Shown: one piece after another, positions 17,163 through 63,213 of the stretch | How positions within the stretch are numbered: the stretch's first letter is position 1 | Layout: each line of letters begins with the position of its first letter | Source: a virus | Strand: one strand, 5' to 3' | DNA: 64,000 bases | Virus record (IMG/VR): IMGVR_UViG_3300025162_000024 | Span: 60,319-124,318 of that record | Program-made: the position numbers and the translations under genes | The notes under the pieces: generated by a model | Told to the model about the DNA's origin: nothing | Database searches by the model: none | What the model saw: only the letters and a program-made list of their open reading frames with translations

Positions 17163-17953
17163 CTCAAAAGCTCCTTGTACTTCGATTGGGTCAGTCTAAG
17201 CGAGAATCGCAGAGCACTATGATCGACGACCGTCGCGGCCCTATCCAAGTCCTCCATCTCACTCATCTTCCTCTGGTGTTCGGAGTCTGCGACATCCGGA
17301 CGACCTCGGGCCGCTTTGGCCCCGAACTCCGCCCTCGACTTCGTCCAGTAGTGGTTGATCGCCATTCGCGAATAGCATACGGGACTAACCAGAGGACCGG
17401 TGCACGGGGTTAGCCCGGTGTCCACCGCCAGCCGGCTCTCAGTATACGAAAACGAGTGGATGCCCACGCCGTTCGGGCAGACGCATTCTGGGCGAACCAA
17501 GCTCTTTACGTGCTGGCACACCGGATTCGAGTCAGGCACACGCATCACATAGTTATCCATCACCAACCCTGGCGGTTTAACCGGGTGCCCAGAACTCCCA
17601 AACATCTTCCAATGGAGGCAGATCCCAACCTGGTCCTCGAACGGACTGAGATCAAGGCGATCGCCCTCCTGGGGGATGATGAACTCATCGGCATCGATCA
17701 CAGCAAGCCACCGGGTATTCCCCCGGGCCCGCATCAGTCCGTCACGGTAGACGGGCCTCTGCTGGACCCTGCCCGGCCAATCGATGAGCTCATAGAACTC
17801 CTTGAACGGCTCCAGGGCCCGGCACAAATCGTCAGAACTCTCGTTATTGAAAATATAGAAATGATCGACACCCAGCAGTAGATGATGGACCAGCCATTCC
17901 CTAAGGTACGGAGCTTCGTCCTTGACCATGACCAGCACAGATAAGTTGTACGT
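17159..17953 (-). CDS. glycosyltransferase, GT92/GT2_4-like; start inferred at ACG 17953
   Basis: KDEAPYLREWL.HHLLLGVDHFYIFNNES.D, WLAVIDADEFI, INHYWTKS; AGGAGG 4 nt before ACG. Confidence 0.8.
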   Translation of the reverse strand, partial: TYNLSVLVMVKDEAPYLREWLVHHLLLGVDHFYIFNNESSDDLCRALEPFKEFYELIDWPGRVQQRPVYRDGLMRARGNTRWLAVIDADEFIIPQEGDRLDLSPFEDQVGICLHWKMFGSSGHPVKPPGLVMDNYVMRVPDSNPVCQHVKSLVRPECVCPNGVGIHSFSYTESRLAVDTGLTPCTGPLVSPVCYSRMAINHYWTKSRAEFGAKAARGRPDVADSEHQRKMSEMEDLDRAATVVDHSALRFSLRLTQSKYKELLR

Positions 17954-17965
17954 ACGCCCTCCTGT

Positions 17966-18079
17966 TCACAGATCGAGGATCACGTTGTTCACGTCACCCT
18001 CTGGATCGAAAAACACATCGGCAAAGTCCTCTGGGTATATGGAGTCCGCACACGGATTTTGTGGGAAATGCGTGGCCAT
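17966..18079 (-). CDS. 37-aa acidic peptide / possible leader ORF
   Basis: MATHFPQNPCADSIYPEDFADVFFDPEGDVNNVILDL; same frame as the downstream glycosyltransferase. Confidence 0.4.
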   Translation of the reverse strand: MATHFPQNPCADSIYPEDFADVFFDPEGDVNNVILDL

Positions 18080-18182
18080 CCCTCCAGGTTACCCCAGGGG
18101 GCTCCTACTAACCTGGGGGGTCCCCGGCCGACCTGAGAACCCCCCTGGACCAGACCATGGCCACCGCAGGAGCGGCGCAAGC

Positions 18183-18341
18183 TTACCACCACATGCGGCA
18201 TATCCCGTAGACCATGCAGACGATGACCGCGGCCACCACGGCCATCCCCACCCACAGGCCCAGGGCGTGACACATCTCTTCGAGAAGTGTCCGCCTTGGC
18301 CCCATGACCGAGGCTACTTGCTCATCTCTTTTTTTAGCCAT
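18183..18341 (-). CDS. 52-aa single-TM membrane protein
   Basis: GGAGG SD; LGLWVGMAVVAAVIVCMVYGIC. Confidence 0.6.
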   Translation of the reverse strand: MAKKRDEQVASVMGPRRTLLEEMCHALGLWVGMAVVAAVIVCMVYGICRMWW

Positions 18342-18354
18342 TGGCCTCCGGCGA

Positions 18355-19107
18355 TCACGTATATACCTGGCAGTCCGGCATATTGTCCAGAGCCGAGAAA
18401 TCCTTGACCCGACTTCCGTACAGTCGCACGCAACGCAGCTTGCGTAGTTTGGCGAGGGGCCGTACGTCGCTGACCGAGGTGCCCACTATACTCAGCCATC
18501 TCAGGTTCCGGCAGTGGGCCAGGGCCGAGATATCCTTGACCCCCGTGTCTCCCAGGTTCAGGTCATCGAGCTTCATGCAGTGGGCCAGGGACGAGATATC
18601 CCTGACGTTGGTATCAGTCAGATAGAGATTACTGAGTCTCTTGCACTTGGCCAGCCCGCTGATATCTCGGATCGTAGTTCCACTCAGATCCAGCATCTCC
18701 AGTTTCGGGCACTCGGAGAGCCTCTCGCTGACCACCGCCGCCTTGATCCCTCGCCTGTATGGCATGTCGAGTTCGGTAATATCCCGAAGGAACCTTTGGG
18801 GCAGGATCTCAAACAGGTTGTCGGCCGCCGCATTCAAGTCCGCGGCTATCATCCGATTCAGGCGGCCAGCGGCTATATCTCGGAGCATCCCCCGGGGTAC
18901 TCCTTGGCGGCCCTCGCAATCCTCTCCCCAGGTCACCCCGTGCACCCTGCGGATTGCACTGTGCCCGACCGCCTCCTCCCAGGTCATCTCCCCATTCGCG
19001 ATCAAGGCCTTCACATCGTTGTCCGTGTTCCAGACTGCCTTGGCCTTTTTTCCAGTAGCAGTGTAGGTCGCACCCGTGATCCAACTAGGTATATCGCACA
19101 TGTTCAA
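18355..19107 (-). CDS. leucine-rich repeat protein (22-aa internalin-like LRRs)
   Basis: five LxxLxLxxTxVxDISxLAxC-type units; near-identical 66-bp DNA period at about 18511 and 18577. Confidence 0.88.
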   Translation of the reverse strand: MNMCDIPSWITGATYTATGKKAKAVWNTDNDVKALIANGEMTWEEAVGHSAIRRVHGVTWGEDCEGRQGVPRGMLRDIAAGRLNRMIAADLNAAADNLFEILPQRFLRDITELDMPYRRGIKAAVVSERLSECPKLEMLDLSGTTIRDISGLAKCKRLSNLYLTDTNVRDISSLAHCMKLDDLNLGDTGVKDISALAHCRNLRWLSIVGTSVSDVRPLAKLRKLRCVRLYGSRVKDFSALDNMPDCQVYT

Positions 19108-19129
19108 ATCTCCTTGTTTGTCAGCACTC

Positions 19130-19465: not shown

Positions 19466-19500
19466 GATATCTCCTGGTAAAAACTCAAACCAGATTCAGG

Positions 19501-20157: not shown

Positions 20158-20174
20158 CTTACGTATCTCCTTTT

Positions 20175-21174: not shown

Positions 21175-21185
21175 GCCGGGGAAGT

Positions 21186-25920: not shown

Positions 25921-26322
25921 TCACACCCAATTTAAATCAATACACAACTTCAGCAACTTGATCGAACGGCAGAGAATGGTTCCATCCGGAAGACTGTCCA
26001 TTTTAGTTCTTTGAAAGCCGCCCTCAATTCGCTGCCAAGCGTGCTTGCTTCTGGAGAGTACCGCCTCACACCGATACACCCGCCACCCGTAGTCTCCGAA
26101 CAACTTTCGTGCGAAGTAACGAGCCTGCCACTCGTAGTCAAATGCACAGAGCGGCCCGCAGTCAGCAGCAGGCTTTACCGTTCGTCCGATCTTATATTTC
26201 ACCGGCTTCAACACTCGAAGATTAGATCGAACCATCCATGACTTGTTGCCGGCGACCGCCGACAGCAGGCTAAACCGGACCACCTTGTACACCTGAATCG
26301 TCTTCTGTCTTCTCTTGACCAT
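25921..26322 (-). CDS. hypothetical protein
   Basis: AAGGAG SD; VYKVV...GPLCAF...PDGTILC. Confidence 0.65.
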   Translation of the reverse strand: MVKRRQKTIQVYKVVRFSLLSAVAGNKSWMVRSNLRVLKPVKYKIGRTVKPAADCGPLCAFDYEWQARYFARKLFGDYGWRVYRCEAVLSRSKHAWQRIEGGFQRTKMDSLPDGTILCRSIKLLKLCIDLNWV

Positions 26323-27256: not shown

Positions 27257-27262
27257 AGCGAT

Positions 27263-27718
27263 CTACCCTCCTTTCTCAGAGTCGGTTTCCCATCCGGGGA
27301 TGACCGCCCGCATCTTCGGCCCGTTCTCCCTGAACCACTTCGAGTCAATCACCCGCAGTCGGACCAGTGGGTGATATTTTGCCATCCGCTTGAGCTTGGT
27401 CTTGCTCTTAGGGTCGAGCCAACCTTTTACTTCGTGATAGATTATTGCTCCATCTCGCTCTGTGACCCGGAAGTCTGGAAGGTAGGACCGGACCCCTCTG
27501 CGGATCTTCTCGAACCAGAAGGTCTCCGGTTCGTGAGCCCAGCCTACGATCTGGCCCTGGTCGACCAGGAACTGGAGGTAGCAAGCATAGTTGTACTCCC
27601 AGCGGCTGCGAAAGAAGATCTTCTTCCCGGCAATCTCCCGCCAACCCGCTTTACTCGTGTGCGTCCCGCCCTTGGTTTGTCTGAAGTTCATAGCGGCCCA
27701 TAATTGTACTGGGGTGAT
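27263..27718 (-). CDS. DUF1064-like PD-(D/E)XK endonuclease; start inferred at ATC 27718
   Basis: FRSRWE..YA.YL, W.HEP..F, YLPDF, YHEVKG; the 5' extension in the ORF track runs through a terminator. Confidence 0.75.
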   Translation of the reverse strand: MTPVQLWAAMNFRQTKGGTHTSKAGWREIAGKKIFFRSRWEYNYACYLQFLVDQGQIVGWAHEPETFWFEKIRRGVRSYLPDFRVTERDGAIIYHEVKGWLDPKSKTKLKRMAKYHPLVRLRVIDSKWFRENGPKMRAVIPGWETDSEKGG

Positions 27719-27760
27719 CTGGTCTCCTTTCTCCAGCCTAGGAAAACTGGGATATACGCC

Positions 27761-27799
27761 AAAACAAGAGCGGCGCGACACAGTATGTCGCGCCGCTCT
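27761..27799 (-). terminator. rho-independent terminator
   Basis: 14-bp stem AGAGCGGCGCGACA/TGTCGCGCCGCTCT then TGTTTT. Confidence 0.75.
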
Positions 27800-37775: not shown

Positions 37776-37795
37776 ACCCGTATTCTACTCAACTT

Positions 37796-49757: not shown

Positions 49758-50043
49758 TCTTAAACTCCCCTCTGGCCATTCGCCCCTGCCTCGGGCTGGT
49801 GTTCACCCCTACACCCAGGCCCAGTGCTTTGCTGAACCCTACCTCATGGGGCAACGCGTACTCTTCACGCATCCCCTTCAGCCGGTAGGTAATCACCGAC
49901 GGGGTCACACGGACGATCTCTATCTGACGGTCTTTACCCTTATCGAACGAGGTTTTGACCGTCTCGAACGGGCCAAGTTGGCCCTTGATCTGACGAGCCC
50001 TCTGCCGCTTCTCGGGCAGAGGGCTCTTGTCTACTTCAGCCAT
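49750..50043 (-). CDS. small basic hypothetical protein
   Basis: AAGGAG SD; ITYRLKGMREEY. Confidence 0.65.
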   Translation of the reverse strand: MAEVDKSPLPEKRQRARQIKGQLGPFETVKTSFDKGKDRQIEIVRVTPSVITYRLKGMREEYALPHEVGFSKALGLGVGVNTSPRQGRMARGEFKIA

Positions 50044-52977: not shown

Positions 52978-54411
52978 TTAGCTCAACTTTCCACTCTTTG
53001 GGGTGACCGGGGGACCGACGGGTAACGAGGCCACAACGCTATCGTTTGCCTCCAGCCTTTGTCCGCCTCCGGCATACACGTACGAGTACTCCTTGTCCTC
53101 GACATGCACCTGATGATAATCCGGGTCGATCCGGCACCAGATGCTCTGCTCGAACGACTTGCCACGGCACTTTGGCGATCCGATCTTGGTCAGATTAGTA
53201 GCCGGATCCTTAGCGTTGACAGTGATCAACGTATCCATCAGCACCGGGAACATCGAAAACTCGGCAGCCGCATACTGGCTGGATTGGCTATCCGCTTTCT
53301 TCTGGCCGGCTGCCGCATTCAACTGGTGCAGTAGGAGTACGGCACACTTGTATTTATCGCTGATCGAGTTCAACTCAGACACGATCTGCTGGTACACGTG
53401 CCGGGTATCTCCAAAGTCGGTCTTATGACTACGCATGTACCTGGTGACCATCTCACCCAGGAAATCAACTACGATCATGGCCGGATGCCGTCCGAGTGCT
53501 TTTGCCCGATAGAGGACCGCGTCGATATCGGCCACGCCATTCATACCAGCGGCACCCGCCTGCATATCGCTGATACTGATCAGGTCGCCGATCTCCTTGC
53601 TTACGCTGGTAACCCGTTTCCTGGTGTCTTCTGACCACTGGTCGTACTGTTTCTCCAGCTCTGACCGATGGATGTTCGCCAGGTGATTGATGAACCTGGG
53701 TTTTAGCTGGTCTTTCGACTGCTCGTACGTGAAGTAGATGACCCGTTCTTTCCAGGAAGAGGCCAGGGTACACGCCAGGTTAATGCCATTCAGTGACTTA
53801 CCGCCACCGATCGGACCGAGCAGCCCTATGAAATCAGTGGCCCGCATCCCCTGGGTCAGCCGATCGAACGGCAGGTAGTTAGTGAGCCTCAGGGGAAGCT
53901 CGTTCTTGTACCCCCGGGTCATGTCGAACGGATTGAACAGCTCGGGGAGCCCCAACTGGTACGTGGAACACAGCTGCCCCATATTCGAGATAAGCTTGGG
54001 CAGATCTGTGATATCCGAGTGGGATGCCGAGCGGATTGAGGGGAGGACCACCCGTTCCTGGAAGAACGTCTGCAACAGATTTTGCCCGTAGTCCTCGGAG
54101 AACTCTTCGGCCGGAGTCTCGTAGACAACCGTAAGAAGATTGTCCACGGCCACCTCTAACTCTGCTTCGTCCAGGGTATCGAGGTTCATCCTGATGAGCA
54201 TCTCCAGAAGCTTCGGCCGCATCAGGAGTTTGGGGAGCAGCTCTTTGTACTCCCGGTAGTGATCCAGGGCCACCGACCAGAGGAAGCCAACGAGCTCCTC
54301 TCCCTTCTGGGTGAAATGAGCCGGCAGAAGCTTGTCTGCCGCCTGCATGAACAGCGTGGGGGTCCGCAGGGTGCAGGCAACCATATACGTAATGTACTCA
54401 GGCGCGATCAT
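52978..54411 (-). CDS. dnaB: DnaB-like replicative helicase
   Basis: LLGPIGGGKS, YFTYEQ, IVVDFL, LLHQLN. Confidence 0.85.
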   Translation of the reverse strand: MIAPEYITYMVACTLRTPTLFMQAADKLLPAHFTQKGEELVGFLWSVALDHYREYKELLPKLLMRPKLLEMLIRMNLDTLDEAELEVAVDNLLTVVYETPAEEFSEDYGQNLLQTFFQERVVLPSIRSASHSDITDLPKLISNMGQLCSTYQLGLPELFNPFDMTRGYKNELPLRLTNYLPFDRLTQGMRATDFIGLLGPIGGGKSLNGINLACTLASSWKERVIYFTYEQSKDQLKPRFINHLANIHRSELEKQYDQWSEDTRKRVTSVSKEIGDLISISDMQAGAAGMNGVADIDAVLYRAKALGRHPAMIVVDFLGEMVTRYMRSHKTDFGDTRHVYQQIVSELNSISDKYKCAVLLLHQLNAAAGQKKADSQSSQYAAAEFSMFPVLMDTLITVNAKDPATNLTKIGSPKCRGKSFEQSIWCRIDPDYHQVHVEDKEYSYVYAGGGQRLEANDSVVASLPVGPPVTPKSGKLS

Positions 54412-54926
54412 ATTTCCAAACCTTCTGTGTGCTTTCCGAGCAGCTTTTGATAGTGCGGGTACAGTCGTAAAAAGGCCGCTGCTGGTTCGGCCGTCTCCCG
54501 CTTAATGTCTTCTAGTTTCAATTCGTTGGCCAGGCACCAGACGAATGCCACATTCAACTTTAGCCCGGGGTCGGCCAGTATCTCCCTAAACTCCCGGCCC
54601 CGTCCCCGCTGGACGGCGACCGAACTGGACATGGCATTCAGGTATACCCGAGCCCGGCTCTCCGCGTCATCCCGGTTCTCTTGGCTCTGTACTTCGTCAG
54701 CATACCTTGGACTCTTCAGGGCCTCTGGTGGCGGGGCCTGGGGGTACCAGGCACGAAACACGTAATCCAGCCACAGATCAGGGTGAAGTCCACGGGTCTC
54801 CGCAAACTCGGCTGCCGACTCCCAGAATTTCTCTCCCCATCTCTTCTGATTAAGCTTAAAGTATCGGAACCGTTGACTACGTCGGCGGCAGTAACCCTCC
54901 ATCAACGCACTAGCCAAAGAGTTCAT
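54408..54926 (-). CDS. hypothetical protein
   Basis: 172-aa ORF between the helicases. Confidence 0.7.
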   Translation of the reverse strand: MNSLASALMEGYCRRRSQRFRYFKLNQKRWGEKFWESAAEFAETRGLHPDLWLDYVFRAWYPQAPPPEALKSPRYADEVQSQENRDDAESRARVYLNAMSSSVAVQRGRGREFREILADPGLKLNVAFVWCLANELKLEDIKRETAEPAAAFLRLYPHYQKLLGKHTEGLEI

Positions 54927-56457
54927 TCTTGACGACCTCTTTCAGCAGGTGGGCTGGCGGGTTAACCACCTCTATGGTCCACCCCATCTTCCTATAGCTT
55001 TTCATGCGTTCTCGGCTCTTTCGTTCGGCGACCGTATCGAACGTGTCGATCGTGTCGATAAGTAGACCATACTCCAATTCGCCTATGCGTGAGAGACGAC
55101 CGGGGATCTGCGTGTTGTTGATCCCCCCACTCTCGGCGTCGGCCCGGACCAGCACCGGGAGCTTCGGGAAGTCAACTCCCTGCTTCCATTTCATGGTCGC
55201 TATGGCCTTCCTCAACGTCTGCTCTTTGAACGCAGTCCTAAGCCCGTCCAGCTCTTTCGTGGACAGCGGACATATCTCTTCCTCTTTGGCCACTCCGGTC
55301 TTCACCAGGTTCTCTTTTACACCCTCGGTCATGTTCCCGTAGATGAGCGTGTACTCGGGCAGAAACTGCTTCAGGTGGTAGGCATGATCCGACTTGGATA
55401 CCATTACTAGTATCTGGGGGTCTGGGACCGGTGATCGGGTAGGGACCAGCTCGTTGCACGCCCAGGCCAAGATCCGGTTGCGATCCGCGTTCCGCCATAC
55501 GGCCTTCCTCTGCCACCCGACTGAGGTCGGATCCATCTGGTTGTCATACCCCGGTATCGGAGGGATCCGGATGGCCACTACCTTGATCGGGCGGACCGCA
55601 TTGTTCTCGACCGCCTCGTCATACGGAATCTCGAGCCGGACAGGCCCGACCCATGCCTCGATCAACGAGTCTCCACCATCGGCGCGTTTGCCCTGGCTGG
55701 CTGTAAACCCCACGATCTTCGCGTCGATCCACGTCCTGCTGAATATGTCCATCCGCCGGTTAGCGGCCAGGCAGTGGACTTCGTCTATGATCAGAAGGTC
55801 GTCGGCGGCGAAGTTGTGCTTGTGCATCGAATCCATCGAGAGCAGGGTCACCCGGTGCCCCGGCTCGTCGTAGCCGATACCGACGATCCCCACGTCGAAC
55901 CCCTTGGAGACCAGGGCTGCATGCAGATCACGGAGCAAGGATTCTCCGGGGGCGACGAACGTGATATGGTTCTCGTGGTAGATCTCACAGAGCATCATGG
56001 CCAGCGTGCTCTTCCCCCAGCCGGTGGGTGCCACGATCACCATGTTCTCGTCGTACGCCTCGATCGTCGCGAGTACCTCGTCCTGCTTATGCCTGAACTT
56101 GGTGATACCGATGCCTGCCAGTCTGTCGTACTGAGGTTCTCCCAACCTACGTCTCCTGAGATCTTGCAGGGTCGAGGAGTGCCCCAGATAGGTCAACCCG
56201 AACTCAAGCTTATGCCGGAGGCCAGCGGGCATCATCAGACTATCCCCGGTAGGCGCGAACAGGTCTATCCGCTTGAAGCTCATATTGGGGTTCTCCCCGA
56301 GCTTCCCGGCCTTCTTCAACCGCTTCCGCTTAAACAGGTCGAGGCCCCTGTAGTACTGTATATGTGTGTAAGAGAGGAACGGCCTGAGCTGATTGGCGAG
56401 GGATGCCCCGCCAACCAGCTCAATGCAGTTCCCGTCTCTCTTGATCGTGTAGGTCGT
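54910..56457 (-). CDS. SF2 helicase (UvsW-like); start inferred at ACG 56457
   Basis: APTGWGKS, IIDEVH, GFTAS, QGVDFPKL, QIPGRLSR. Confidence 0.9.
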   Translation of the reverse strand, partial: TTYTIKRDGNCIELVGGASLANQLRPFLSYTHIQYYRGLDLFKRKRLKKAGKLGENPNMSFKRIDLFAPTGDSLMMPAGLRHKLEFGLTYLGHSSTLQDLRRRRLGEPQYDRLAGIGITKFRHKQDEVLATIEAYDENMVIVAPTGWGKSTLAMMLCEIYHENHITFVAPGESLLRDLHAALVSKGFDVGIVGIGYDEPGHRVTLLSMDSMHKHNFAADDLLIIDEVHCLAANRRMDIFSRTWIDAKIVGFTASQGKRADGGDSLIEAWVGPVRLEIPYDEAVENNAVRPIKVVAIRIPPIPGYDNQMDPTSVGWQRKAVWRNADRNRILAWACNELVPTRSPVPDPQILVMVSKSDHAYHLKQFLPEYTLIYGNMTEGVKENLVKTGVAKEEEICPLSTKELDGLRTAFKEQTLRKAIATMKWKQGVDFPKLPVLVRADAESGGINNTQIPGRLSRIGELEYGLLIDTIDTFDTVAERKSRERMKSYRKMGWTIEVVNPPAHLLKEVVKNELFG

Positions 56458-56470
56458 AGCAATCTCCTTT

Positions 56471-56794
56471 TTACCAGTCAAATTGTGGAAGATCATCGTA
56501 CTCGGTGCCGTCACAGCCCAACCTTAGCACGCTGCACCCCGACTCCTGCACCTTCTGAACTAGGCTTACGGCCTCTGCCGAGAATCCGAGATCCACCATG
56601 CGAATTATGATCGATGCCTGGTAGTCAGGATCGGTACCGACGCATACGAAGTATCCCTCGTAGTATTCACTAACGCAGAAATCCGAAGGTCTGCCGTTTG
56701 CCTCAGCATCGGCAAGCATGGTCAGCAGTTCGCTGTCTTTGAGATCAATGTGGCAAGTGGAACAGTCAACGTAGCAGTAGGTATCAAACTTCAC
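56471..56794 (-). CDS. DUF5983-like protein
   Basis: AAGGAG SD; STCHI...EGYFV...GC..LRL..DG....LPQFDW. Confidence 0.6.
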   Translation of the reverse strand: MKFDTYCYVDCSTCHIDLKDSELLTMLADAEANGRPSDFCVSEYYEGYFVCVGTDPDYQASIIIRMVDLGFSAEAVSLVQKVQESGCSVLRLGCDGTEYDDLPQFDW

Positions 56795-56802
56795 GTTTCT
56801 CC

Positions 56803-59001
56803 TTAACCGGCAACCGCCTGGATCTGACCCATGTCGATACACTGGTCAAATGCAGACGAGAACCGCTCGTCGTGGGTGATCATGAGCATTTGCAGCCCCT
56901 GGGTCTTGGCATACCCGCTGACCGCTGCCAGCATATCCCGGACCTTAACGACGTGGGCTGCGTTCAGCCCGTAGGTCGGTTCGTCCAGGCACATGAACCG
57001 GATGTTTGAAGCGCACTGCCTGTGCACCGTGCACAGTAGGCAGATGGCGGCACAGCACAGCTGCCCGCCCGACAACTCCTCAATCGCCTGCTCGCCCCAC
57101 CCAAATTTGGCGGTCATCGACAGGTCGGGGTTCACCCCGATCGTGAACGGTACATCGACCATCGACAGAAGCTCGTTCCAGCTCCGGTTGAGCCTGGAGA
57201 GCGAGTGGCGTATACGGGCCGTGGGATAAGCCGATCGGTGGAGGACCCCGTACGTCCGGTTCAGGATATCCCGGTAGTGGACGACCCCGGCCGAGGCCGC
57301 TTCGGCCTCTTTGGCCTTAGCCAGTCTCTGGCCCATGTCAGTCACCTGCTTCTGCCACTCTCCGAGCTTAGCCTGGAGGCCAGCGCGTTTCGCGACAGTC
57401 GCAGAGATCTGAGCGAGCTCTTCCTTCTTCTTATCCCAGCCTACGTACTTGGCAGAGGCCAGCGAGGCCTGGACCTCGGCCAGAACCTCCAGAGCCTTGT
57501 CCACAGCCGTATATTCCGCTTCGGCCCGAGCCTGGTCGGCACCGGTCGTGGCCACGGCCTGCTGAGCTCTGGCCGCAGCCTGCTGTAGACTCTTCTCTCT
57601 GGCCAGCAGGTCTTCGCAGGATTTGCGGTCCTCTGCGGACATCTGCTGAACGTCTGCCGTAGCCTGGCTGGCCGCGGCTTCCGCGGCCGCCATCTGCTGA
57701 GATAACGACTGGGCCTGGGCCATACTCGTCTCCCACCCCCGACGCTTCTGCCTCCCGGCCAAGACCGTAGCCCGGTACTCTGCAAGCATCTTTCGGCCTT
57801 CGGCAACCTCCTTACGCAAGGTGGCCGCCTGGTCCCGGTTCTCTTTAACCTTAGTCTCCAGGTTAGTAAGCTGCCCGTCTTGATCGACTATGGCCCGGGT
57901 CCCGCACGTGGGACACACGCCTTTAGCGAAGCTCTGGGCGAACCGCTCCAGGCTGAGCATTGATTGCTCGGCCGGGATGATCACCTCAGTCTCAAGCTTC
58001 TGCCAGGCGGCGTCCTGATCCTCGGGCTCCGGGGGTTCCATCGTCTTCAGCTTATCGACTCGGGTCCGGGCCGCGGCCACCCGGCTAGTATGGCTCTCGA
58101 GCTCGGCGTGAAGCTTGGCGGCTCTTCCGGCACTCTCCAATAGTGCCCGGGCCTCTTGGGCCATCGGGGCGATCTCCTCTACCTGCTTGCGCAGATTGAG
58201 AGAAGCGAGTACCGCGGATTCCGATCGCTCCGCACTATTCGCCCGCTCCAGGTTAGCCCTGACCTCTGCCTCGGTCATCGCCCACAGCCCAGTCTTGGCA
58301 TCGGCCAGCCTGAGGGTCATGTTCTCAGCCTCGCGGACCAGAGCCTCATCCTCCTTAAGCTTCTGACCGTCCACGGGCGGCAATCCCTCTAGTTCCTTAG
58401 TAGCCTGCTCAATCTGAGCCGTAAGCTGCTGCAGCTGCTGTGGCAGAAGTTCTATGCCCATGATCACCGAGGGGGGTGGAGTCAGCTGGAGGCTCGTACT
58501 GATCAGGGTCCGAAGGGTCTCGCAGTTCTCTAGCCCGAACAGCCGGGTCAGAGCAGTCTCTCGCTCGGAGGGCCGTGCAGACAAGAGACGGGCGGTTTCC
58601 CCCTGAGGGATGAACACAGCGGTATCCAGTTGCTTGCTGGACGCTCCCAGGATATCGGCCAATACCTCTGCGACGGCCGCTTCGGACCTGGCTGTTTTAT
58701 CCCCGAACCTAAGGCTTCGGCTGGACCCACCTGACCGGCTCAGGCTACGGGTGAGGGTCCCGGGCATCCCCAGATGGGAGAAAGTCAAGGTGGCTGCCCC
58801 TTTGTCCTCCTGTTTATAAATGCGGCGGACCTGGGTTCCGTATCCCTTGAAGTCACCGGTCAACAACCACTGGATGATTTTTATCACATGGCTCTTACCA
58901 CACCCTATGGGTCCAAGGATCCCGGTCAAGCCCGGTCCAAACTTCAGGGATGCGTGGCGGATAGGGCCTAGATGCTCAATATCAAGCTGTAACAGATCCA
59001 C
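56803..59001 (-). CDS. sbcC: SbcC/Rad50-like ATPase
   Basis: GPIGCGKS, FIPQG, coiled coil with CPTCG hook, LSGGQ, LDEPT, ITHD. Confidence 0.92.
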   Translation of the reverse strand: MDLLQLDIEHLGPIRHASLKFGPGLTGILGPIGCGKSHVIKIIQWLLTGDFKGYGTQVRRIYKQEDKGAATLTFSHLGMPGTLTRSLSRSGGSSRSLRFGDKTARSEAAVAEVLADILGASSKQLDTAVFIPQGETARLLSARPSERETALTRLFGLENCETLRTLISTSLQLTPPPSVIMGIELLPQQLQQLTAQIEQATKELEGLPPVDGQKLKEDEALVREAENMTLRLADAKTGLWAMTEAEVRANLERANSAERSESAVLASLNLRKQVEEIAPMAQEARALLESAGRAAKLHAELESHTSRVAAARTRVDKLKTMEPPEPEDQDAAWQKLETEVIIPAEQSMLSLERFAQSFAKGVCPTCGTRAIVDQDGQLTNLETKVKENRDQAATLRKEVAEGRKMLAEYRATVLAGRQKRRGWETSMAQAQSLSQQMAAAEAAASQATADVQQMSAEDRKSCEDLLAREKSLQQAAARAQQAVATTGADQARAEAEYTAVDKALEVLAEVQASLASAKYVGWDKKKEELAQISATVAKRAGLQAKLGEWQKQVTDMGQRLAKAKEAEAASAGVVHYRDILNRTYGVLHRSAYPTARIRHSLSRLNRSWNELLSMVDVPFTIGVNPDLSMTAKFGWGEQAIEELSGGQLCCAAICLLCTVHRQCASNIRFMCLDEPTYGLNAAHVVKVRDMLAAVSGYAKTQGLQMLMITHDERFSSAFDQCIDMGQIQAVAG

Positions 59002-60085
59002 TGACTACCTCCTTCGGGGCTACGCATTTGTCCCGAAAATCCGAGAGGATCTTCCGGGGGTCTGCGGACTGGAGCAGGGTGCTGGCGAACGCGACGGTCT
59101 CCGAGTCCCCCTCCAGCTCCTGCAATATCTGAAGATCGGTCCGGACCTCGTCAGATTCGGCGACGGTCACTTCGATCTTCTCCTTGGCCGATGGGATCAG
59201 CATAAGACTGGCCACAGGCTCGACAGCCGCCCTGACCTTCCCCTCATCCCCGGCCGCGGCCTCCGCCAAGCGGATGGCAGCCAGCGGCTTAAGCTCAGGA
59301 TCATCGGCCGCCGTCGGTTTCAGATCCGCTACTAACTTAGCCAGGTCCGACTGGAGCTGGGAGGCCCCCAGGATATCCCGGTACACGATCCGACGGTTCT
59401 TGACCGGTATCCGGCAATAGCTGAGCCCTTCGTTCAGGACCAAGAATGACCTGGGGGACAGCTCATCCAACCCCAGGGGGTAGAGCGAACCAGTATAGAT
59501 CAGGGTCTTGTCCCCAACCTTATGCTCGCTCGGCATATGCGAATCGCCGAACACTGCGAGTTTGATCCACGCTGGGAGCCACTCAGGATCGAGATTCCAC
59601 CGGCCGGGGATGTCAATAATCCACCGGCCCATCTGATGACCGATGAGCAGCTTGGCGTCCGGAGGGCACTGGGCCAGCGTCTTCTGCAGGGCCTCAGTAT
59701 CGGCCGTGAACGGAACCAGGTAGGTCGGTACCCCCTCCAGCGGAAGCAGGCTGGGGACCACCGCATTTCGGATCCCGCATACATTCAGCCAGTCGGTGCC
59801 CTGATCGTGCCCAGGATTACCCGTGATCCCCAAGCAGAACACTTCCATCGCGTGCAGTTCTTGTACCGCTTTTTGCAGGGTGCGGACCACCTCATCCATC
59901 GGATACGGATCGTCGAAAGTATCACCGGCGAATACGACTGTCCCTATCCGCGGCTCGCCCTGCCGATCGCGAACCACCTCGACCAGTTGGCGGATAGTCG
60001 ATTCCAGATCTCCGCGGATATCCGGGCGACCCGCCCAGATCTGCTTCTTACAGTGTAGGTCACCTACAACCAGAATTCTACCCAT
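58982..60085 (-). CDS. sbcD: SbcD/Mre11-like metallophosphoesterase nuclease
   Basis: GDLH, AGDTFD, GN..HD, GHQ, GDSH, YTGS. Confidence 0.9.
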   Translation of the reverse strand: MGRILVVGDLHCKKQIWAGRPDIRGDLESTIRQLVEVVRDRQGEPRIGTVVFAGDTFDDPYPMDEVVRTLQKAVQELHAMEVFCLGITGNPGHDQGTDWLNVCGIRNAVVPSLLPLEGVPTYLVPFTADTEALQKTLAQCPPDAKLLIGHQMGRWIIDIPGRWNLDPEWLPAWIKLAVFGDSHMPSEHKVGDKTLIYTGSLYPLGLDELSPRSFLVLNEGLSYCRIPVKNRRIVYRDILGASQLQSDLAKLVADLKPTAADDPELKPLAAIRLAEAAAGDEGKVRAAVEPVASLMLIPSAKEKIEVTVAESDEVRTDLQILQELEGDSETVAFASTLLQSADPRKILSDFRDKCVAPKEVVSGSVTA

Positions 60086-60086
60086 G

Positions 60087-61082
60087 TTAATCGGTATCCT
60101 TATATAACCTGGAGACGATTTTGAACCCCGCGACTCGCCCGTTCCCGAACAACTCCGGGGGGTCGATTCTAACGACTATGCCCTCGGCCGGCTTCCCATT
60201 CGGAAGCTTCTGAGCATCGGCCAGGGCCTGCAGCTGATCGGTGGTCTGGTACTTACCGGCCTCACAGAATCCGATGAGCGGAACGGTGTTAGCCCCAATA
60301 TCGACAGCAAGGTTGCTCATGCCGGGCCAGGCCATAGGAGCATGGTTCGCTCCGAACACGTTGAACACGAAGATCTCGGGCTCTGTCAGCTCAAGCTGGT
60401 TCCCCTGGACGCCGGGTCCCATCAGCTCGCCTTGGATCACACAGTCAGGTATAGTCTTGGTAATCTTGAGCTTCTTGGCCGCGTGCCAGAAGGCATTCCC
60501 TGGCTGATCGACCAGCGACAAGTTACGAGAGCAGACCTGGGAGATCTGACCGCCCTCGACGATCACCGTGCAGCTCGATCCGTCCATCTTCTTCGTGATG
60601 TACACCGGATGTTTCAGGACGTGGGCGACAATATCCAGGTTACTGAGGCCGTTATCCTCGTCGGTCTTCGGAGCTAGATGGGTGGGGAATGTCGAGCGGG
60701 CCTGTCCGCTGAGGGCCAGGCTCAACTCCTTTTCATACTTGGTGATCCCAAGTTCTCCTCCGACGTCCACCCCTTCCTGCCAACCCTGGACGCTCTCGGG
60801 CAGGACCGAGATCGGCAGGAACAGGCCCTGCGAGTACTCCCCGCGGATCTTGGCCGTCTTCAGCCGGATACGCCGGTCTGGGCGGTTCACGTCCACGAGG
60901 AACTCGGACCAGGGTGTGCGGGGGAGGATCGTGTCTATGACGATGAACACCCCGCGATCCCCAACCTTGAACTCATCTCGTTTGACGACGGTCTGCCAGC
61001 CTAGGATTTTGGCTATGGCTAGGCGATCAGCATTGGAATGATTCTTCAATTCAGCGACTGTCTCGATCGATGCCAGTTTCAT
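60087..61082 (-). CDS. ATP-dependent RNA ligase, DRB0094/Rnl5 family
   Basis: N-terminal KLASI...NADRL...GWQTVV...RG.YSQGL; KTDE, KMDGSS, QGEL.GPGVQGN, EGIVVR, FKIVS. Confidence 0.9.
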   Translation of the reverse strand: MKLASIETVAELKNHSNADRLAIAKILGWQTVVKRDEFKVGDRGVFIVIDTILPRTPWSEFLVDVNRPDRRIRLKTAKIRGEYSQGLFLPISVLPESVQGWQEGVDVGGELGITKYEKELSLALSGQARSTFPTHLAPKTDEDNGLSNLDIVAHVLKHPVYITKKMDGSSCTVIVEGGQISQVCSRNLSLVDQPGNAFWHAAKKLKITKTIPDCVIQGELMGPGVQGNQLELTEPEIFVFNVFGANHAPMAWPGMSNLAVDIGANTVPLIGFCEAGKYQTTDQLQALADAQKLPNGKPAEGIVVRIDPPELFGNGRVAGFKIVSRLYKDTD

Positions 61083-61101
61083 ACCTATCTCCTTATGAGG
61101 A

Positions 61102-61644
61102 CTATACTTGCTTCACCAACCACAGTTGGTCACTGTCCACCGAGACCTGTGCCCACCCCAGTCGGCTCGCCCTGGCCCCAAGCTGTGTCCACCATTTCGA
61201 GGCCAGCCCGTAGCCTTTATTGCCGGTCCCGGCACAGAGCAGGCAGACCCCTGGGCTTATCCCGTCCACTTCCAACTTCAACCGTTCCATCCTCTGCTTA
61301 TTCGGATTGGGCCTCAGACTCTCCCGGCGATACGCCAGGAGCATACGCTGGGCCCTCCCCCGGTCCTGGACGTCCGGCTGAATCTCGGCAGCCCCCTTGC
61401 ACAGCGGACAGGGCTCGTCGTTCTTGTTGCAGATACCGTCCACGATCAGCTTCTCGACCTCCTCGGGTAGCGGAACACGCCTCCGAGGCTCCTGGCAATC
61501 AGCGGCTTTGGCCTCCTCCAGGAACTCTGGGAGATCCGGGAAGGTCACATCGGGGACCGCCGTGTAGAACGGACCACGCAGCCCAGCGAGCTCCGCTAGC
61601 TTCTCCCGGTCCCAGAACACATCCGGATCATCCGTTTTAACCAT
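61102..61644 (-). CDS. hypothetical protein with DnaJ-type CxxCxG motifs
   Basis: CPLCKG...CLLCAGTG; start uncertain. Confidence 0.6.
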   Translation of the reverse strand: MVKTDDPDVFWDREKLAELAGLRGPFYTAVPDVTFPDLPEFLEEAKAADCQEPRRRVPLPEEVEKLIVDGICNKNDEPCPLCKGAAEIQPDVQDRGRAQRMLLAYRRESLRPNPNKQRMERLKLEVDGISPGVCLLCAGTGNKGYGLASKWWTQLGARASRLGWAQVSVDSDQLWLVKQV

Positions 61645-61676
61645 AGTTACGAACCGACCCTGGAGCACTGGTATTT

Positions 61677-61934
61677 CTATGCTCGGTGGGCCGGTACCGG
61701 TACCTGATTCATTTCCAACCATTCTTTCTCCCAATTCAAAGCTGCTTGTCTACTCTCAAACTTACGCCGAGGGCCCTGGACTGGGGCGAGGTCTGCGACC
61801 CACCCGAGTCCCTCGGGCTCCACATGACTCGCCCTTTCCACTCGAGACTCTCCCAGCTGGAGGAGCCCGCGGAGCGCGTCGTCATAAACGAACCTGAGCC
61901 CTTCCGGGCTGCAGAATATCTTTAGCTGTCGCGT
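61677..61934 (-). CDS. conserved small protein (RASHVEP motif); start inferred at ACG 61934
   Basis: FVYDD.L...RASHVEP...WVADLAPV.GP...F.SR.AAL..E.EWL. Confidence 0.7.
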   Translation of the reverse strand, partial: TRQLKIFCSPEGLRFVYDDALRGLLQLGESRVERASHVEPEGLGWVADLAPVQGPRRKFESRQAALNWEKEWLEMNQVPVPAHRA

Positions 61935-62123
61935 ACGGACCTCCAGTATAATAGGGGTTATGGTTAAGAGAACGGCCAAGGTTTACCTCGAAAATAGAGG
62001 GTATAGGTTTAGGCCACTGCGGCCGTTGCCCCTGCTGGGACCCGGGCTGATCCACTCTGCCCAACGCCCGGATACGAGCGGAACCGCCCGCAAACCGGCT
62101 TCGGTGGATAGTCCTAACCGGGG

Positions 62124-62324
62124 CTAGCCCTGCCCTTGTACGATCTCCTGCTCAGTCTGGGCCACCAGGTACTCATCAGTCTGCTGATTATCCTGCACTT
62201 CCCCAAGCCTTCGCTCTAAGCCGGCAGTAGCCTTCTGGCAGCTGGGTCCGGAGAACCCTTCGGTCTGGACCGAAGTGGACTTGCCGTCAGCCGCGATCTT
62301 GATCGTAATCCTCTTCATTCTCAT
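62124..62324 (-). CDS. DUF2997-like protein
   Basis: ITIKI..DG....TEGFSGPSC.KAT..LE..LG. Confidence 0.8.
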   Translation of the reverse strand: MRMKRITIKIAADGKSTSVQTEGFSGPSCQKATAGLERRLGEVQDNQQTDEYLVAQTEQEIVQGQG

Positions 62325-62746
62325 CCTTTGTCCAAAATTGACCACGGGACTTCCTCGGTCTCATACGATTCGTCAGTATGCCGCGCGTAAAAGGTCCAGA
62401 GGAAGCCGGTCTCCTTGATCAGGACGCTGGACGCATCTGTCGTGAAAGTTAGCAGCGGATCAAGCTTGTAGCCGACTGGGACCTCGGCGTATCCAGGTCC
62501 GTTCAATGCCGAGCCAAACTGATCATCATCCTCACCGAGGGTCACCGGGTCGATCGTGTAATCAAAGAACTCAGCAGCGTAGAAGCCTGGTTGCTTGAAC
62601 AGCGGAGAGACCTTCTTCCGTAAGAGACTCATCCGCTTCCTGAACCCGGCGTCGATCTCCAGCAGACAAGTGTCGCAATCTCCGCCGTTCCCGCCAAAGT
62701 CATTATCACCAATATGGTTAACGCGAATCAACAGTTTTCTCGTCAT
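62321..62746 (-). CDS. hypothetical protein
   Basis: GAGGT SD, ATGA coupling. Confidence 0.65.
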   Translation of the reverse strand: MTRKLLIRVNHIGDNDFGGNGGDCDTCLLEIDAGFRKRMSLLRKKVSPLFKQPGFYAAEFFDYTIDPVTLGEDDDQFGSALNGPGYAEVPVGYKLDPLLTFTTDASSVLIKETGFLWTFYARHTDESYETEEVPWSILDKG

Positions 62747-63213
62747 ACGCCTACCTCTGTAAGCCCGTTCAACCACTCGTTCACCCGTTCCTCGGCCTGG
62801 CCATCGATGGTCAAGACGATCACCCGCTCACCCGACTCCAGGTCCTGTGTCTCTTCCGTGGCCCCCATCCCCAACAGCTGCCGGATGTCCGGAGAGGTCA
62901 AAGCACACTGGCGGTTATACTCTTTGAGCAGGCCTTGGAGCTGAGCACCCCCAGCCTTCTGGGACATCCCGAGGCCCCCGTTGTACGCGTCGTACAATAG
63001 GTCATACGACCCATCCGGGGTCCGGACCACCCCGATCTCGTAGCATCTGAGGTTCTCGGGGATCGTAATGACCCACTCGGAACCGGATCGCATCTGCCCG
63101 CCATACGTCCGGAACTTATCCCGCTTCTCCAGGGCCATCCCGAGTACCGTACAGGCCAGGCCCAACGCTTTCAGATTCTTGATCTTCATGCCTACCACAG
63201 CAATATGGCTTAT
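62743..63213 (-). CDS. DUF1257-like protein; start inferred at ATA 63213
   Basis: (M)SHIAVV..KIKNL.AL..AC..LG...YEIGV....DGSYDL.YD. Confidence 0.75.
   Translation of the reverse strand: MSHIAVVGMKIKNLKALGLACTVLGMALEKRDKFRTYGGQMRSGSEWVITIPENLRCYEIGVVRTPDGSYDLLYDAYNGGLGMSQKAGGAQLQGLLKEYNRQCALTSPDIRQLLGMGATEETQDLESGERVIVLTIDGQAEERVNEWLNGLTEVGV

What the first reader, a model, noticed from the sequence alone, without database searches (positions are those of the whole stretch)
17953..63213. Set of genes with strong SD aimed at non-canonical start codons (ACG x3, ATA, ATC): possible initiation-level regulon
SEEN (minus strand): SF2 helicase AAAGGAG-ATTGCT-ACG (56457); GT92-like AGGAGG-GCGT-ACG (17953); RASHVEP protein GGAGG-TCCGT-ACG (61934); DUF1257-like GAGGTG-CAATC-ATA (63213); DUF1064-like nuclease AAAGGAG-ACCAG-ATC (27718). 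In each the codon is in frame, 4-6 nt from the SD, and gives a plausible N-terminus, while the ATG/GTG/TTG alternatives have weaker or no SD. All three ACGs occur as TACG. KNOWN: IF3 discriminates against such codons (the basis of infC AUU autoregulation), and C-to-U editing creates AUG from ACG in plant organelles. INFERENCE: a phage subset is translationally gated, for example by IF3 inhibition or replacement, a phage initiator tRNA, editing, or deliberate down-tuning. Three identical ATG-to-ACG changes at start positions are unlikely as random assembly error.
Basis: partly seen in the sequence, partly recalled or inferred. Interest (0 to 1): 0.8.

Follow-up and report, generated by a model that had tools for sequence, protein, structure and literature searches.

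The report
Phage genes starting at weak codons
In this uncultured freshwater phage, at least three genes (a helicase, a glycosyltransferase and a DUF1257-like protein) have ACG or ATA, behind a strong ribosome-binding site, exactly where their relatives have the start methionine. Gene finders therefore mis-start them, and they are probably made at a low level by a known kind of translational brake.

Summary
All five motifs are in the sequence as described.

**Real DNA, not assembly error.** Contigs of 4 runs from 3 studies match the window over 56309-64000. That stretch holds two ACGs and the ATA.

**Three sites are backed by relatives' N-termini:**
- DUF1257-like gene: 21 of 21 aligned homologues begin MSH, and ours reads I(ATA)-S-H with an in-frame TGA four codons upstream.
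- Glycosyltransferase: the ACG lies in the modal start column of 59 homologues.
- Helicase: the ACG gives 8 residues before a conserved Gly. Eleven homologues have 7-12 and the canonical alternatives give 16-27. Its 13-nt leader is identical to that of an ATG gene.

**Two sites stay ambiguous.** The RASHVEP gene has TTG 61979 with its own SD. The DUF1064-like gene has ATG 27691 without one.

**The bare motif is not rare.** There are 206 SD-plus-near-cognate sites inside genes. Only position at gene starts makes these five special.

**Interpretation.** This is most likely near-cognate initiation that lowers expression, as at infC and S. aureus ccpN. I found no evidence for a coordinated regulon, editing or a phage factor, but the record is only 61% complete.

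This scan has already reported similar cases in other phage genomes.

The parts
54910..56457 (-). SF2 (ResIII/DEAD) helicase gene read from ACG 56457-56455 (515 codons plus stop)
   Evidence: Pfam ResIII 39.5 bits and DEAD 30.9 bits. From ACG there are 8 residues before the conserved Gly of I-R/K-R-x-G-N-L. Eleven homologues have 7-12 residues there.
56464..56470 (-). SD AAAGGAG of the helicase, 6 nt before ACG, directly after the upstream gene's TAA (56473-56471)
   Evidence: Duplex energy -8.7. The 13-nt leader AAAGGAGATTGCT is identical to that of the ATG gene at 6395 (2 matches, 0 expected).
6393..6408 (-). Comparator: the same leader AAAGGAGATTGCT followed by ATG (start of gene 5133-6395)
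17159..17953 (-). GT92 / Glyco_tranf_2_4 glycosyltransferase gene read from ACG 17953-17951
   Evidence: Pfam 58.4 and 45.3 bits. The ACG start leaves 12 residues before the nearly invariant Glu, which is the modal class among homologues (13 of 59; 32 of 59 have 11-14). Cyanophage and megaphage homologues start within one residue of it.
17958..17963 (-). SD AGGAGG of the GT gene, 4 nt before ACG; in-frame TGA at 17968-17966
   Evidence: Energy -10.8.
62743..63213 (-). DUF1257-like gene read from ATA 63213-63211 (156 codons plus stop)
   Evidence: 104 of 149 listed homologues align residue 1-2 to residue 1-2 (my count). 21 of 21 aligned homologues begin MSH and ours reads ISH. In the AF2 model (pLDDT 93.1) the first strand is residues 4-11.
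63219..63224 (-). SD GAGGTG, 5 nt before ATA. In-frame TGA at 63225-63223 overlaps it. The upstream gene's TAA (63212-63210) overlaps ATA as ATAA.
   Evidence: Energy -9.2.
61677..61934 (-). Small 'RASHVEP' ORF read from ACG 61934-61932 (85 codons); alternative TTG 61979-61977 (100 codons)
   Evidence: ESM Atlas structural neighbours of 69-80 aa align from residues 16-18 of the TTG form, and ACG is residue 16 (a lead only). No homologue was found in GenBank phages.
61940..61944 (-). SD GGAGG, 5 nt before ACG 61934; rival SD GAGGT at 61989-61985, 5 nt before TTG 61979
   Evidence: Energies -10.5 and -7.3.
27263..27718 (-). DUF1064-like nuclease gene read from ATC 27718-27716; alternative ATG 27691
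   Evidence: Pfam DUF1064 22.6 bits, below the 24.7 cut-off. PHROG 190 (Holliday junction resolvase) E 4.6e-20. The conserved core begins about residue 40 of the GTG-numbered ORF, so homologues do not fix the start.
27724..27730 (-). SD AAAGGAG, 5 nt before ATC 27718, about 35 nt after an intrinsic terminator
   Evidence: Energy -8.7.
27767..27799 (-). Terminator-like hairpin (15 pairs) plus T-run that contains GTG 27781

Best explanation
At least three genes of this phage, and possibly five, are translated from near-cognate start codons that differ from AUG by one base. The three are the helicase at ACG 56457, the GT92-like glycosyltransferase at ACG 17953 and the DUF1257-like gene at ATA 63213. 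The two possible ones are the RASHVEP ORF at ACG 61934 and the DUF1064-like nuclease at ATC 27718.

Proposed mechanism:
- A top-quartile Shine-Dalgarno site 4-6 nt upstream holds the 30S subunit so that the weak codon sits in the P site.
- Initiator tRNA pairs with two of the three bases. At the three ACGs the T at -1 could add the published U(-1):A37 pair.
- IF3 proofreading keeps the yield low. In E. coli reporters ACG gives about 1% of AUG, and AUA or AUC give 3-8%.
- In three cases a stop codon lies within 13 nt upstream or overlaps the start: TAA before the helicase SD, ATAA at the DUF1257-like gene, and TGA before the GT SD. Terminating ribosomes may therefore feed the site.

The likely effect is constitutive low expression of proteins needed in small amounts, and that expression would rise if initiation fidelity fell.

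Shown: the sequence, its reproducibility, and the coincidence with homologues' N-termini. Inferred: that initiation happens there, how efficient it is, and that the low level is selected.
For: 1. DUF1257-like gene.
- An in-frame TGA (63225-63223) leaves only ATC or ATA before the invariant Ser2-His3.
- 21 of 21 aligned homologues start MSH. I chose those 21 from hits whose match began at residue 1-2.
- In the unselected table, 104 of 149 rows have that register (my count).
- In the AF2 model (pLDDT 93.1) the first strand spans residues 4-11. Starts at GTG 63198 or ATG 63189 would cut it.

2. GT.
- Reading from ACG leaves 12 residues before the nearly invariant Glu. That is the modal class: 13 of 59 homologues have 12, and 32 of 59 have 11-14.
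- 0 of 59 match GTG 17938 (7 residues) and 1 of 59 matches ATG 17929 (4 residues).
- Phage homologues begin MKHYLSV... and MNLAICA..., against our (ACG)YNLSV.

3. Helicase.
- Eleven homologues have 7-12 residues before the conserved Gly. The ACG start gives 8, and the canonical alternatives give 16, 21 and 27.
- The leader is identical to that of an ATG gene.
- GTG 56514 would need a 44-nt overlap with an upstream gene whose DUF5983 match runs to its last residue.

4. The SDs score -8.7 to -10.8. The quartiles of 137 canonical starts are -8.7, -6.6 and -5.5.

5. Local context looks like real starts.
- GC is 0.45-0.52, against a median of 0.50 at real starts and 0.617 at 197 interior look-alike sites.
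- Four of the five are less folded than 90% or more of the interior sites.

6. The DNA is reproducible in 4 runs from 3 studies for three sites, and in protein variants for three sites.

7. Published precedent (passages read).
- S. aureus infC, ccpN and citZ use AUA and cvfC1 uses AUU. The paper describes extended SDs for infC, cvfC1 and ccpN; in reporters cvfC1, ccpN and citZ gave about 10-30% of AUG (PMC13009471).
- E. coli CAT reporters gave ACG 48 and 78 against AUG 7314 and 7838 (PMC3643588).
- Protein made from an ACG start carried N-terminal Met (10.1101/063800).
- U(-1):A37 pairing is described in PMC10018350.

8. T at -1 occurs at 3 of 3 ACG sites, against 30 of 137 canonical starts.
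Against: - There is no direct evidence of initiation. No RNA, Ribo-seq or proteomic data exist for this phage.
- The motif itself is common. 206 interior near-cognates have an equally strong SD, and there is no genome-wide excess of ACG behind SD-like words.
- RASHVEP has a canonical TTG with a good SD (-7.3) 15 codons upstream, and gene callers use it.
- The DUF1064-like core starts only at about residue 40, so ATG 27691 gives a perfectly plausible protein. The nine codons between ATC and ATG score poorly as coding (mean log-odds -0.22, GC3 0.44). The eight codons from ATA to ATG 63189 score similarly (-0.19, GC3 0.38).
- The helicase has in-frame GTG 56514 with a near-median SD (-5.5). 11 of 136 neighbouring gene pairs overlap by more than 20 nt in my rough calls.
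- About 20% of this genome's apparent ATG starts have weak SDs.
- The only close relatives are near-identical strains, so conservation of the odd codons over evolutionary distance is untested.
- The site around ATA 63213 is more folded (-16.2 kcal/mol) than 90% of real starts.
- Homologues' N-termini come from automatic gene calls.
- I selected the GT set by length: 59 of 119 non-self hits, 241-299 aa.
Confidence: 0.68

Rival explanations
1. Ordinary canonical starts. Each gene begins at the nearest ATG, GTG or TTG, giving a longer helicase and RASHVEP protein and shorter GT, DUF1257-like and DUF1064-like proteins. The SD next to a near-cognate codon is coincidence.
For: - Canonical candidates exist in all five genes, and gene callers used them.
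- SD plus near-cognate occurs 206 times inside genes by chance.
- TTG 61979 has SD -7.3 and GTG 56514 has -5.5.
- 20% of apparent starts have weak SDs.
- The codons between ATC and ATG (27718-27691) and between ATA and ATG (63213-63189) score poorly as coding.
Against: - The DUF1257-like protein would lose the invariant Ser2-His3 and half of its first strand.
- 0 of 59 GT homologues have the GTG-type N-terminus and 1 of 59 has the ATG-type.
- The helicase would carry a 13-19 aa extension with no counterpart in the five closest homologues or in the six loci read as DNA; three more distant gene calls (P0010, P0027, P0030) are 1-10 aa longer, and would overlap a conserved domain of the upstream gene.
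- GTG 27781 lies in a terminator stem.
- The strong SDs would have no start codon within 15-32 nt.
Confidence: 0.12
2. Start-codon loss. These are accessory genes on the way to being lost. Single transitions (ATG to ACG, ATG to ATA) killed their starts, and the proteins are no longer made in useful amounts.
For: - Each codon is one substitution from ATG.
- ATGA to ATAA keeps the upstream stop, so that change is free for the neighbouring gene.
- ACG gives only about 1% of AUG in E. coli reporters (PMC3643588, passages).
- An earlier report of this scan read a Cas12m ACG in this way (e1-5325691).
Against: - All five ORFs are otherwise intact and keep their family-invariant residues.
- By my estimate (inference, no call), nonsense changes should outnumber start-loss changes about 15 to 1 under neutral decay. 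I saw no split genes among those inspected.
- The SDs are intact and strong.
- The same codons are present in runs from 2016 to 2020.
- One of the genes is an SF2 helicase, the only helicase domain among the 15 window proteins that I scanned against Pfam.
Confidence: 0.1
3. A dedicated mechanism makes these codons efficient. Candidates are C-to-U (and A-to-I) mRNA editing, a phage initiator-like tRNA or factor encoded in the missing part of the genome, or phage interference with IF3. The genes would then form a switchable set.
For: - There are three identical ACGs, all preceded by T (p about 0.01 from a 22% background).
- 3-5 of about 140 genes is far above the 4 non-canonical starts that Ribo-RET found across the whole S. 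aureus genome (PMC13009471).
- All five lie in the non-structural half of the record.
- The record is only 61% complete, so factors could be missing.
Against: - There is no tRNA in the 124 kb.
- No IF3_C, IF1 or dCMP/cytidine-deaminase domain was found.
- No single deamination explains ACG, ATA and ATC together.
- No motif is shared beyond the SD.
- The T at -1 is already explained by ordinary tRNA-fMet A37 pairing (PMC10018350).
- This scan has found similar scattered weak starts in unrelated phages.
Confidence: 0.08

Closest known systems
S. aureus non-canonical starts behind extended SD motifs (infC AUA, ccpN AUA, citZ AUA, cvfC1 AUU; PMC13009471, passages read)
   Same: A weak single-mismatch start codon is placed behind a strong or extended SD. 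Output is lowered to a fraction of AUG. Automatic annotation misses such starts.
   Different: Those are third-position variants mapped by Ribo-RET and reporters, four in a whole bacterial genome. Here two or three are ACG (a middle-position mismatch), nothing is mapped experimentally, and the density is 3-5 in about 140 phage genes.
E. coli infC AUU start and IF3 autoregulation (recalled; cited as reference 2 in PMC3643588, passages read)
   Same: A near-cognate start makes expression sensitive to IF3 proofreading.
   Different: infC is a feedback loop on IF3 itself. Here the genes are a helicase, a glycosyltransferase, a nuclease and unknowns, with no link to IF3 shown.
Start-codon tuning by mutation in Listeria rsbW (ATG to ATA or ATT; PMC13068326, abstract read)
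   Same: Single-base start-codon changes are fixed because they lower the amount of one protein.
   Different: That work used experimental evolution in a bacterium and measured the effect. Here the effect and the selection are inferred.
ACG-to-AUG C-to-U editing of plant organelle start codons (recalled; only listings seen)
   Same: ACG stands in the DNA at the position of the start codon.
   Different: Editing needs dedicated editing factors (PPR proteins, recalled), for which I did not search; the one cytidine-deaminase family that I did search (PF00383) gave no match. It would not repair ATC, and no RNA data exist to test it.
Earlier reports of this scan on other phage genomes (e1-5596456, e1-5974323, e1-5921808, e1-5914015)
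   Same: Uncultured phages have helicase or other replication and accessory genes that begin at ACG, ATA, ATC or ATT behind strong SDs, and relatives' N-termini support those starts.
   Different: This is a different genome with no sequence relatives among noted windows. The special causes proposed in those reports (an HNH insertion, restriction-site avoidance) were not found here.

Membership tests
Near-cognate start codon behind a strong SD (infC / ccpN type attenuation) | No canonical start codon at the N-terminus fixed by homologues | tested here: met
   Met for 3 of 5 genes: DUF1257-like, GT and helicase. Not decidable for RASHVEP and DUF1064-like.
Near-cognate start codon behind a strong SD (infC / ccpN type attenuation) | Strong SD 4-9 nt upstream of a codon one base from AUG | tested here: met
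   5 of 5. Energies run from -8.7 to -10.8 with spacers of 4-6 nt.
Near-cognate start codon behind a strong SD (infC / ccpN type attenuation) | Initiation shown at that codon (Ribo-RET peak, N-terminal peptide, reporter) | not testable with these tools
   No RNA holder was listed. The phage is uncultured.
Near-cognate start codon behind a strong SD (infC / ccpN type attenuation) | Non-canonical codon conserved among diverged relatives | tested here: inconclusive
   The codons are unchanged in near-identical strains from 3 studies. The nearest other helicase is 48% identical, and the homologues' gene calls start with M or V. One DUF1257-like homologue (P0070) is also called from the internal Met, but its DNA could not be fetched.
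C-to-U editing of ACG start codons (plant organelle type) | RNA shows U where DNA has C; an editing deaminase is present | tested here: inconclusive
   No PF00383 match in the 124 kb, but the record is 61% complete. No RNA run is available. ATC cannot be repaired by deamination (sequence logic).
Restriction-site avoidance forcing a non-ATG start (idea from e1-5963956) | ATG, GTG or TTG at the site would create an under-represented word | tested here: not met
   No new 4-6-mer with observed/expected below 0.5 would arise. The palindromes that would arise are at expected counts: CATG 926 against 946, TCATGA 32 against 42, TGTACA 68 against 70.
DUF1257 (PF06868), for the 62743-63213 protein | Pfam model match | tested here: not met
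   No hit even at E<=10. ESM Atlas: 28 of 30 feature neighbours fall in the set whose clusters carry DUF1257 in 14-44% of members, and a structural neighbour has TM 0.66/0.78. The protein therefore resembles the family, but membership by the model is not shown.
Glycosyltransferase family 92 / Glyco_tranf_2_4, for 17159-17953 | Pfam match above the gathering score | tested here: met
   PF13704 58.4 bits (cut-off 27.5) and PF01697 45.3 bits (cut-off 23).
DUF1064 (PF06356), for 27263-27718 | Pfam match above the gathering score | tested here: not met
   22.6 bits against a cut-off of 24.7. PHROG 190 'Holliday junction resolvase' gives E 4.6e-20. The protein is 56% identical to an annotated phage endodeoxyribonuclease I over 110 residues.
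SF2 helicase (ResIII / DEAD), for 54910-56457 | Pfam match above the gathering score | tested here: met
   PF04851 39.5 bits (cut-off 22.5) and PF00270 30.9 bits (cut-off 26).

The most novel reading that the evidence does not exclude
The weak-start genes form a fidelity-gated set. During infection the phage would lower start-codon proofreading, for example by acting on IF3. Alternatively it would supply an initiator-like tRNA or an editing activity encoded in the roughly 39% of the genome missing from this record. ACG, ATA and ATC genes with strong SDs and U at -1 would then switch from about 1% to substantial expression at a set time.
Probability: 0.08. Interest if true: 0.85.

Novelty: new member of a known kind. 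Interest (0 to 1): 0.5.

Why it matters
Gene finders accept only ATG, GTG and TTG. They therefore mis-start these genes:
- The public calls cut the first 12 residues off the GT protein.
- They cut the first 8 residues off the DUF1257-like protein, including its invariant Ser-His.
- They add 13-19 residues to the helicase.

This distorts family alignments and structure models. If initiation at these codons is confirmed, the phage would add natural ACG starts, which are hardly documented in bacteria or phages. My two literature searches for ACG starts listed no such case. Together with the other cases this scan has found, that would suggest weak start codons are a regular way for phages to set low protein doses. 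A single phage with 3-5 such genes would also be a convenient system for asking whether infection changes start-codon fidelity.

Tried and rejected
- **Genome-wide enrichment of SD followed by ACG.** None was found: 56 observed against about 54 expected.
- **Extra candidates from my flag and orphan-SD lists.** Manual reading showed each to be internal to a gene or to have a good ATG nearby. These were -46805 CTG, -29710 and -26927 AAG, 2922 AAG, 3058 ACG, 10716 ATC, 25103 AGG, 37679 CTG, -37979 ACG (inside an AT-rich gene my finder had missed) and -43330 ATA.
- **Restriction-site avoidance.** Not supported.
- **Codon-usage scoring of the short stretches between rival starts.** The stretches are too short to decide.
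- **Sigma-70 promoter between TTG 61979 and ACG 61934.** None was found.
- **Split-RBS hairpin bringing the SD near ATG 27691.** By eye I saw only a 4-bp stem, so I dropped the idea.
- **Close relatives.**
  - The viral-contig scans with the helicase, the GT start pattern and P0070 found nothing.
  - GenBank phages gave nothing by blastn for window 54000-60000, nor by tblastn for the RASHVEP and DUF1257-like proteins.
  - The metagenome scan gave only helicase relatives at 38% identity or less, and none of the other four genes lay in those 53 loci.
- **RNA evidence.** No RNA holder was listed, so editing and expression were not tested.
- **Literature.** Searches for 'ACG start codon' with 'phage' (7 papers listed) and for 'ACG initiation codon' with 'bacteria' (14 papers held the terms, 12 listed) returned no natural phage or bacterial ACG start. 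The search for 'class IIA' codons with IF3 returned nothing, so my memory of Sussman et al. 1996 is not used as evidence. Supplements were closed and might hold start-codon tables.

Full report
**What the window is.**
- The window is the second half of a single 124,318-base virus record.
- The record is classed linear and 61% complete by CheckV.
- Nine DNA runs from three freshwater or lake studies hold it.
- A rough codon-usage gene finder of my own called 140 ORFs, 138 of them on the minus strand.
- Provisional starts were 105 ATG, 18 GTG and 14 TTG.
- ARAGORN finds no tRNA in the window or in the whole record.

**Check of the observation.**
- I scored the SDs as duplex energy with a recalled anti-SD tail. 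The five near-cognate codons score -8.7 to -10.8. The quartiles of 137 provisional canonical starts are -8.7, -6.6 and -5.5.
- The canonical alternatives score from +0.5 to -2.9, with two exceptions: GTG 56514 (-5.5) and TTG 61979 (-7.3).
- The claim that the alternatives have weaker or no SD therefore holds well for three genes, moderately for the helicase and poorly for the RASHVEP ORF.

**Is the pattern more than chance?** Taken as a bare motif, it is not.
- ACG at 4-8 nt behind 691 SD-like 5-mers occurs 56 times against about 54 expected.
- Among 31,857 interior in-frame codons, 206 near-cognates (24 of them ACG) have an SD of -8.7 or better.
- An unbiased flag asked for a near-cognate SD of -7 or better that beats the best canonical by at least 3.
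- One further SD-ACG, found, lies inside an AT-rich gene that my finder had missed.
- About 20% of apparent canonical starts have weak SDs.
- The case therefore rests on where the five sites lie, not on how often the motif occurs.

**DUF1257-like gene (ATA 63213).**
- An in-frame TGA at 63225-63223 leaves only GGT GCA ATC ATA before Ser-His.
- An exhaustive HMMER search found 243 relatives at E<=0.001. In 104 of the 149 listed non-self rows, residue 1-2 of the query aligns with residue 1-2 of the hit (my count of the table).
- I aligned 21 of those hits, chosen because their match began at residue 1-2. All 21 begin M-S-H, with Ser2 and His3 invariant, and ours reads I-S-H.
- Two hits with split matches also begin MSH.
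- An AlphaFold model built on that alignment (mean pLDDT 93.1) puts the first strand at residues 4-11. Starting at GTG 63198 or ATG 63189 would remove Ser-His and part of a core strand.
- The ATA overlaps the upstream gene's stop as ATAA. One G-to-A change from the common ATGA arrangement would give this while keeping the upstream stop.
- Pfam's DUF1257 model does not hit the protein. The family label rests on ESM Atlas neighbours.

**Glycosyltransferase (ACG 17953).**
- An in-frame TGA lies four codons upstream.
- I aligned 59 homologues, chosen as those of 241-299 aa among 119 non-self hits. I then counted residues before the nearly invariant Glu of K/R-D/N-E.
- The counts were 12 residues in 13 proteins, 13 in 10, 11 in 4 and 14 in 5.
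- Reading from ACG gives 12, the modal class: (ACG)YNLSVLVMVKDE beside MPYLSICAVYRDE.
- GTG 17938 would give 7 residues (0 of 59 homologues) and ATG 17929 would give 4 (1 of 59).
- Synechococcus phage and megaphage homologues read directly from DNA start within one residue of the ACG.
- The public gene call for this phage starts at ATG 17929.

**Helicase (ACG 56457).**
- Five protein homologues (P0007, P0008, P0009, P0026, P0028) and six loci read from DNA (L001, L002, L007, L008, L011, L016) have 7-12 residues before the conserved Gly of I-R/K-R-x-G-N-L.
- ACG gives 8. TTG 56481, ATG 56496 and GTG 56514 give 16, 21 and 27.
- Three further gene calls are longer at the N-terminus.
- The 13-nt leader AAAGGAGATTGCT occurs twice in the window, once before ATG (gene 5133-6395) and once before this ACG. 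None is expected by chance.
- The upstream gene's DUF5983 match runs to its last residue, so GTG 56514 would need 44 nt of double coding.

**The two open cases.**
- RASHVEP ORF: I found no sequence homologues.
- The ESM Atlas lists structural neighbours of 69-80 aa that align from residues 16-18 of the TTG-started form. ACG is residue 16. This is a lead only.
- DUF1064-like nuclease: the conserved core begins near residue 40, and the closest homologue carries an unrelated 134-residue N-terminal part.
- Homology therefore cannot choose between ATC 27718 (SD -8.7) and ATG 27691 (no SD). GTG 27781 lies inside a 15-pair terminator stem.

**Is the DNA real?**
- Contigs of four runs from three studies (depth about 8-57) have no difference from the window across 56309-64000, except at 61014-61032 in one run. 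They therefore agree at 56457, 61934 and 63213.
- Protein variants from JGI, ENA and Logan assemblies keep Thr in KKEIATTYT and in LEVRTRQ, and Ile in GDQITPV.
- Some of these runs may be the source of the record.
- The DNA at 17953 and 27718 was not re-checked with reads.

**Context test.**
- In 60-nt windows the five sites have GC of 0.45-0.52. Real starts have a median of 0.50 and 197 interior look-alike sites have 0.617.
- Four of the five are less folded than 90-100% of the interior sites. The ATA site is the exception at -16.2 kcal/mol.
- This mainly shows that the sites lie at gene boundaries.

**Mechanism.**
- The simplest account is ordinary initiation by tRNA-fMet on a single-mismatch codon held in place by a strong SD.
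- E. coli CAT reporters gave AUG 7314 and 7838, AUA 238 and 313, AUC 352 and 631, and ACG 48 and 78 (PMC3643588, passages read). ACG is thus about 1% of AUG, and AUA or AUC about 3-8%.
- GFP made from an ACG start carried N-terminal Met (10.1101/063800, passages read).
- S. aureus uses AUA or AUU at infC, ccpN, citZ and cvfC1; the paper describes extended SDs for infC, cvfC1 and ccpN. In reporters cvfC1, ccpN and citZ gave about 10% of AUG, rising to 30% for ccpN in rich medium (PMC13009471, passages read).
- A U at -1 pairs with A37 of the initiator tRNA and raises initiation (PMC10018350, passages read). All three ACGs have T at -1, against 30 of 137 canonical starts (roughly p 0.01, small n).
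- Three of the sites follow or overlap an upstream stop codon, which may allow coupling. This last point is inference.

**What I found no support for.**
- No IF3_C, IF1 or cytidine-deaminase domain and no tRNA is present in the 124 kb. The record is incomplete, so this is weak evidence.
- Editing cannot unify ACG, ATA and ATC.
- Canonical codons at these sites would create no under-represented word. The restriction-avoidance idea from an earlier report of this scan therefore does not apply here.
- Neutral decay is unlikely. Five start-only lesions with no nonsense or frameshift lesion in the same genes would be an odd spectrum (my estimate, not a computed result).

**Comparison and verdict.**
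- This is a new member of a known kind: near-cognate start codons behind strong SDs that set a low protein dose.
- Two or three of the codons are ACG, and the density per genome is high.
- This scan has already reported similar sets in other, unrelated phage genomes. No noted window is related in sequence to this one.
The 'regulon' and special-factor options remain untested speculation.

Noticed in passing
window 56107-56338, 54593-54819, 49852-49927, 61014-61032: Short patches of dense strain variation sit in an otherwise identical genome. Examples are 23 differences in a 232-nt contig and 17 in a 227-nt contig. Separate lower-depth contigs carry them in one or two runs each. The first patch lies inside the helicase N-terminal part.
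   Followed up: no
window 36780-37775 (-) and 37796-40312 (+): Two divergent ORFs have ATGs only 20 nt apart, and neither has an SD (energies -2.4 and +0.5). The + strand ORFs 33518-35434 and 37796-40312 are the only plus-strand calls among 140.
   Followed up: no
genome 22095-22551, minus strand (about 37,770 to 38,220 letters before the window's start): An AT-rich gene with a twin-arginine-like or signal-like N-terminus (MVTRIQFIKRLGMAAVALVALP...) was missed by my codon-usage gene finder. It holds an internal SD-ACG look-alike.
   Followed up: partly
window 27256-27270: In the D12-class adenine methyltransferase gene (26270-27256), the GGAGG lies 10 nt from the ATG. An in-frame ATC (27262) sits at 4-5 nt, right after the upstream TAG.
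   Followed up: no
window 17966-18340: A 52-codon membrane-like ORF (18340-18185) lies upstream of the GT. So does a 37-codon ORF (18079-17966) in the same frame as the GT, ended by TGA four codons before ACG. A 7-bp inverted repeat CCCCAGG/CCTGGGG lies near 18125-18092.
   Followed up: no
whole record: CheckV rates the record 61% complete, and one assembly contig in run X1 is 137,661 nt, longer than the 124,318-nt record. Part of the phage genome is therefore missing here.
   Followed up: no
protein P0070: A DUF1257-like homologue (39% identical) is called from MKIKNL..., the same internal Met as the public call of this phage's gene. It may also lack a canonical start for the MSH end. Its DNA could not be fetched.
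   Followed up: partly
window 56471-59001: The helicase lies downstream of a DUF5983-domain gene and a 732-aa SbcC/SMC-like ATPase (AAA_23, SMC_N).
   Followed up: no
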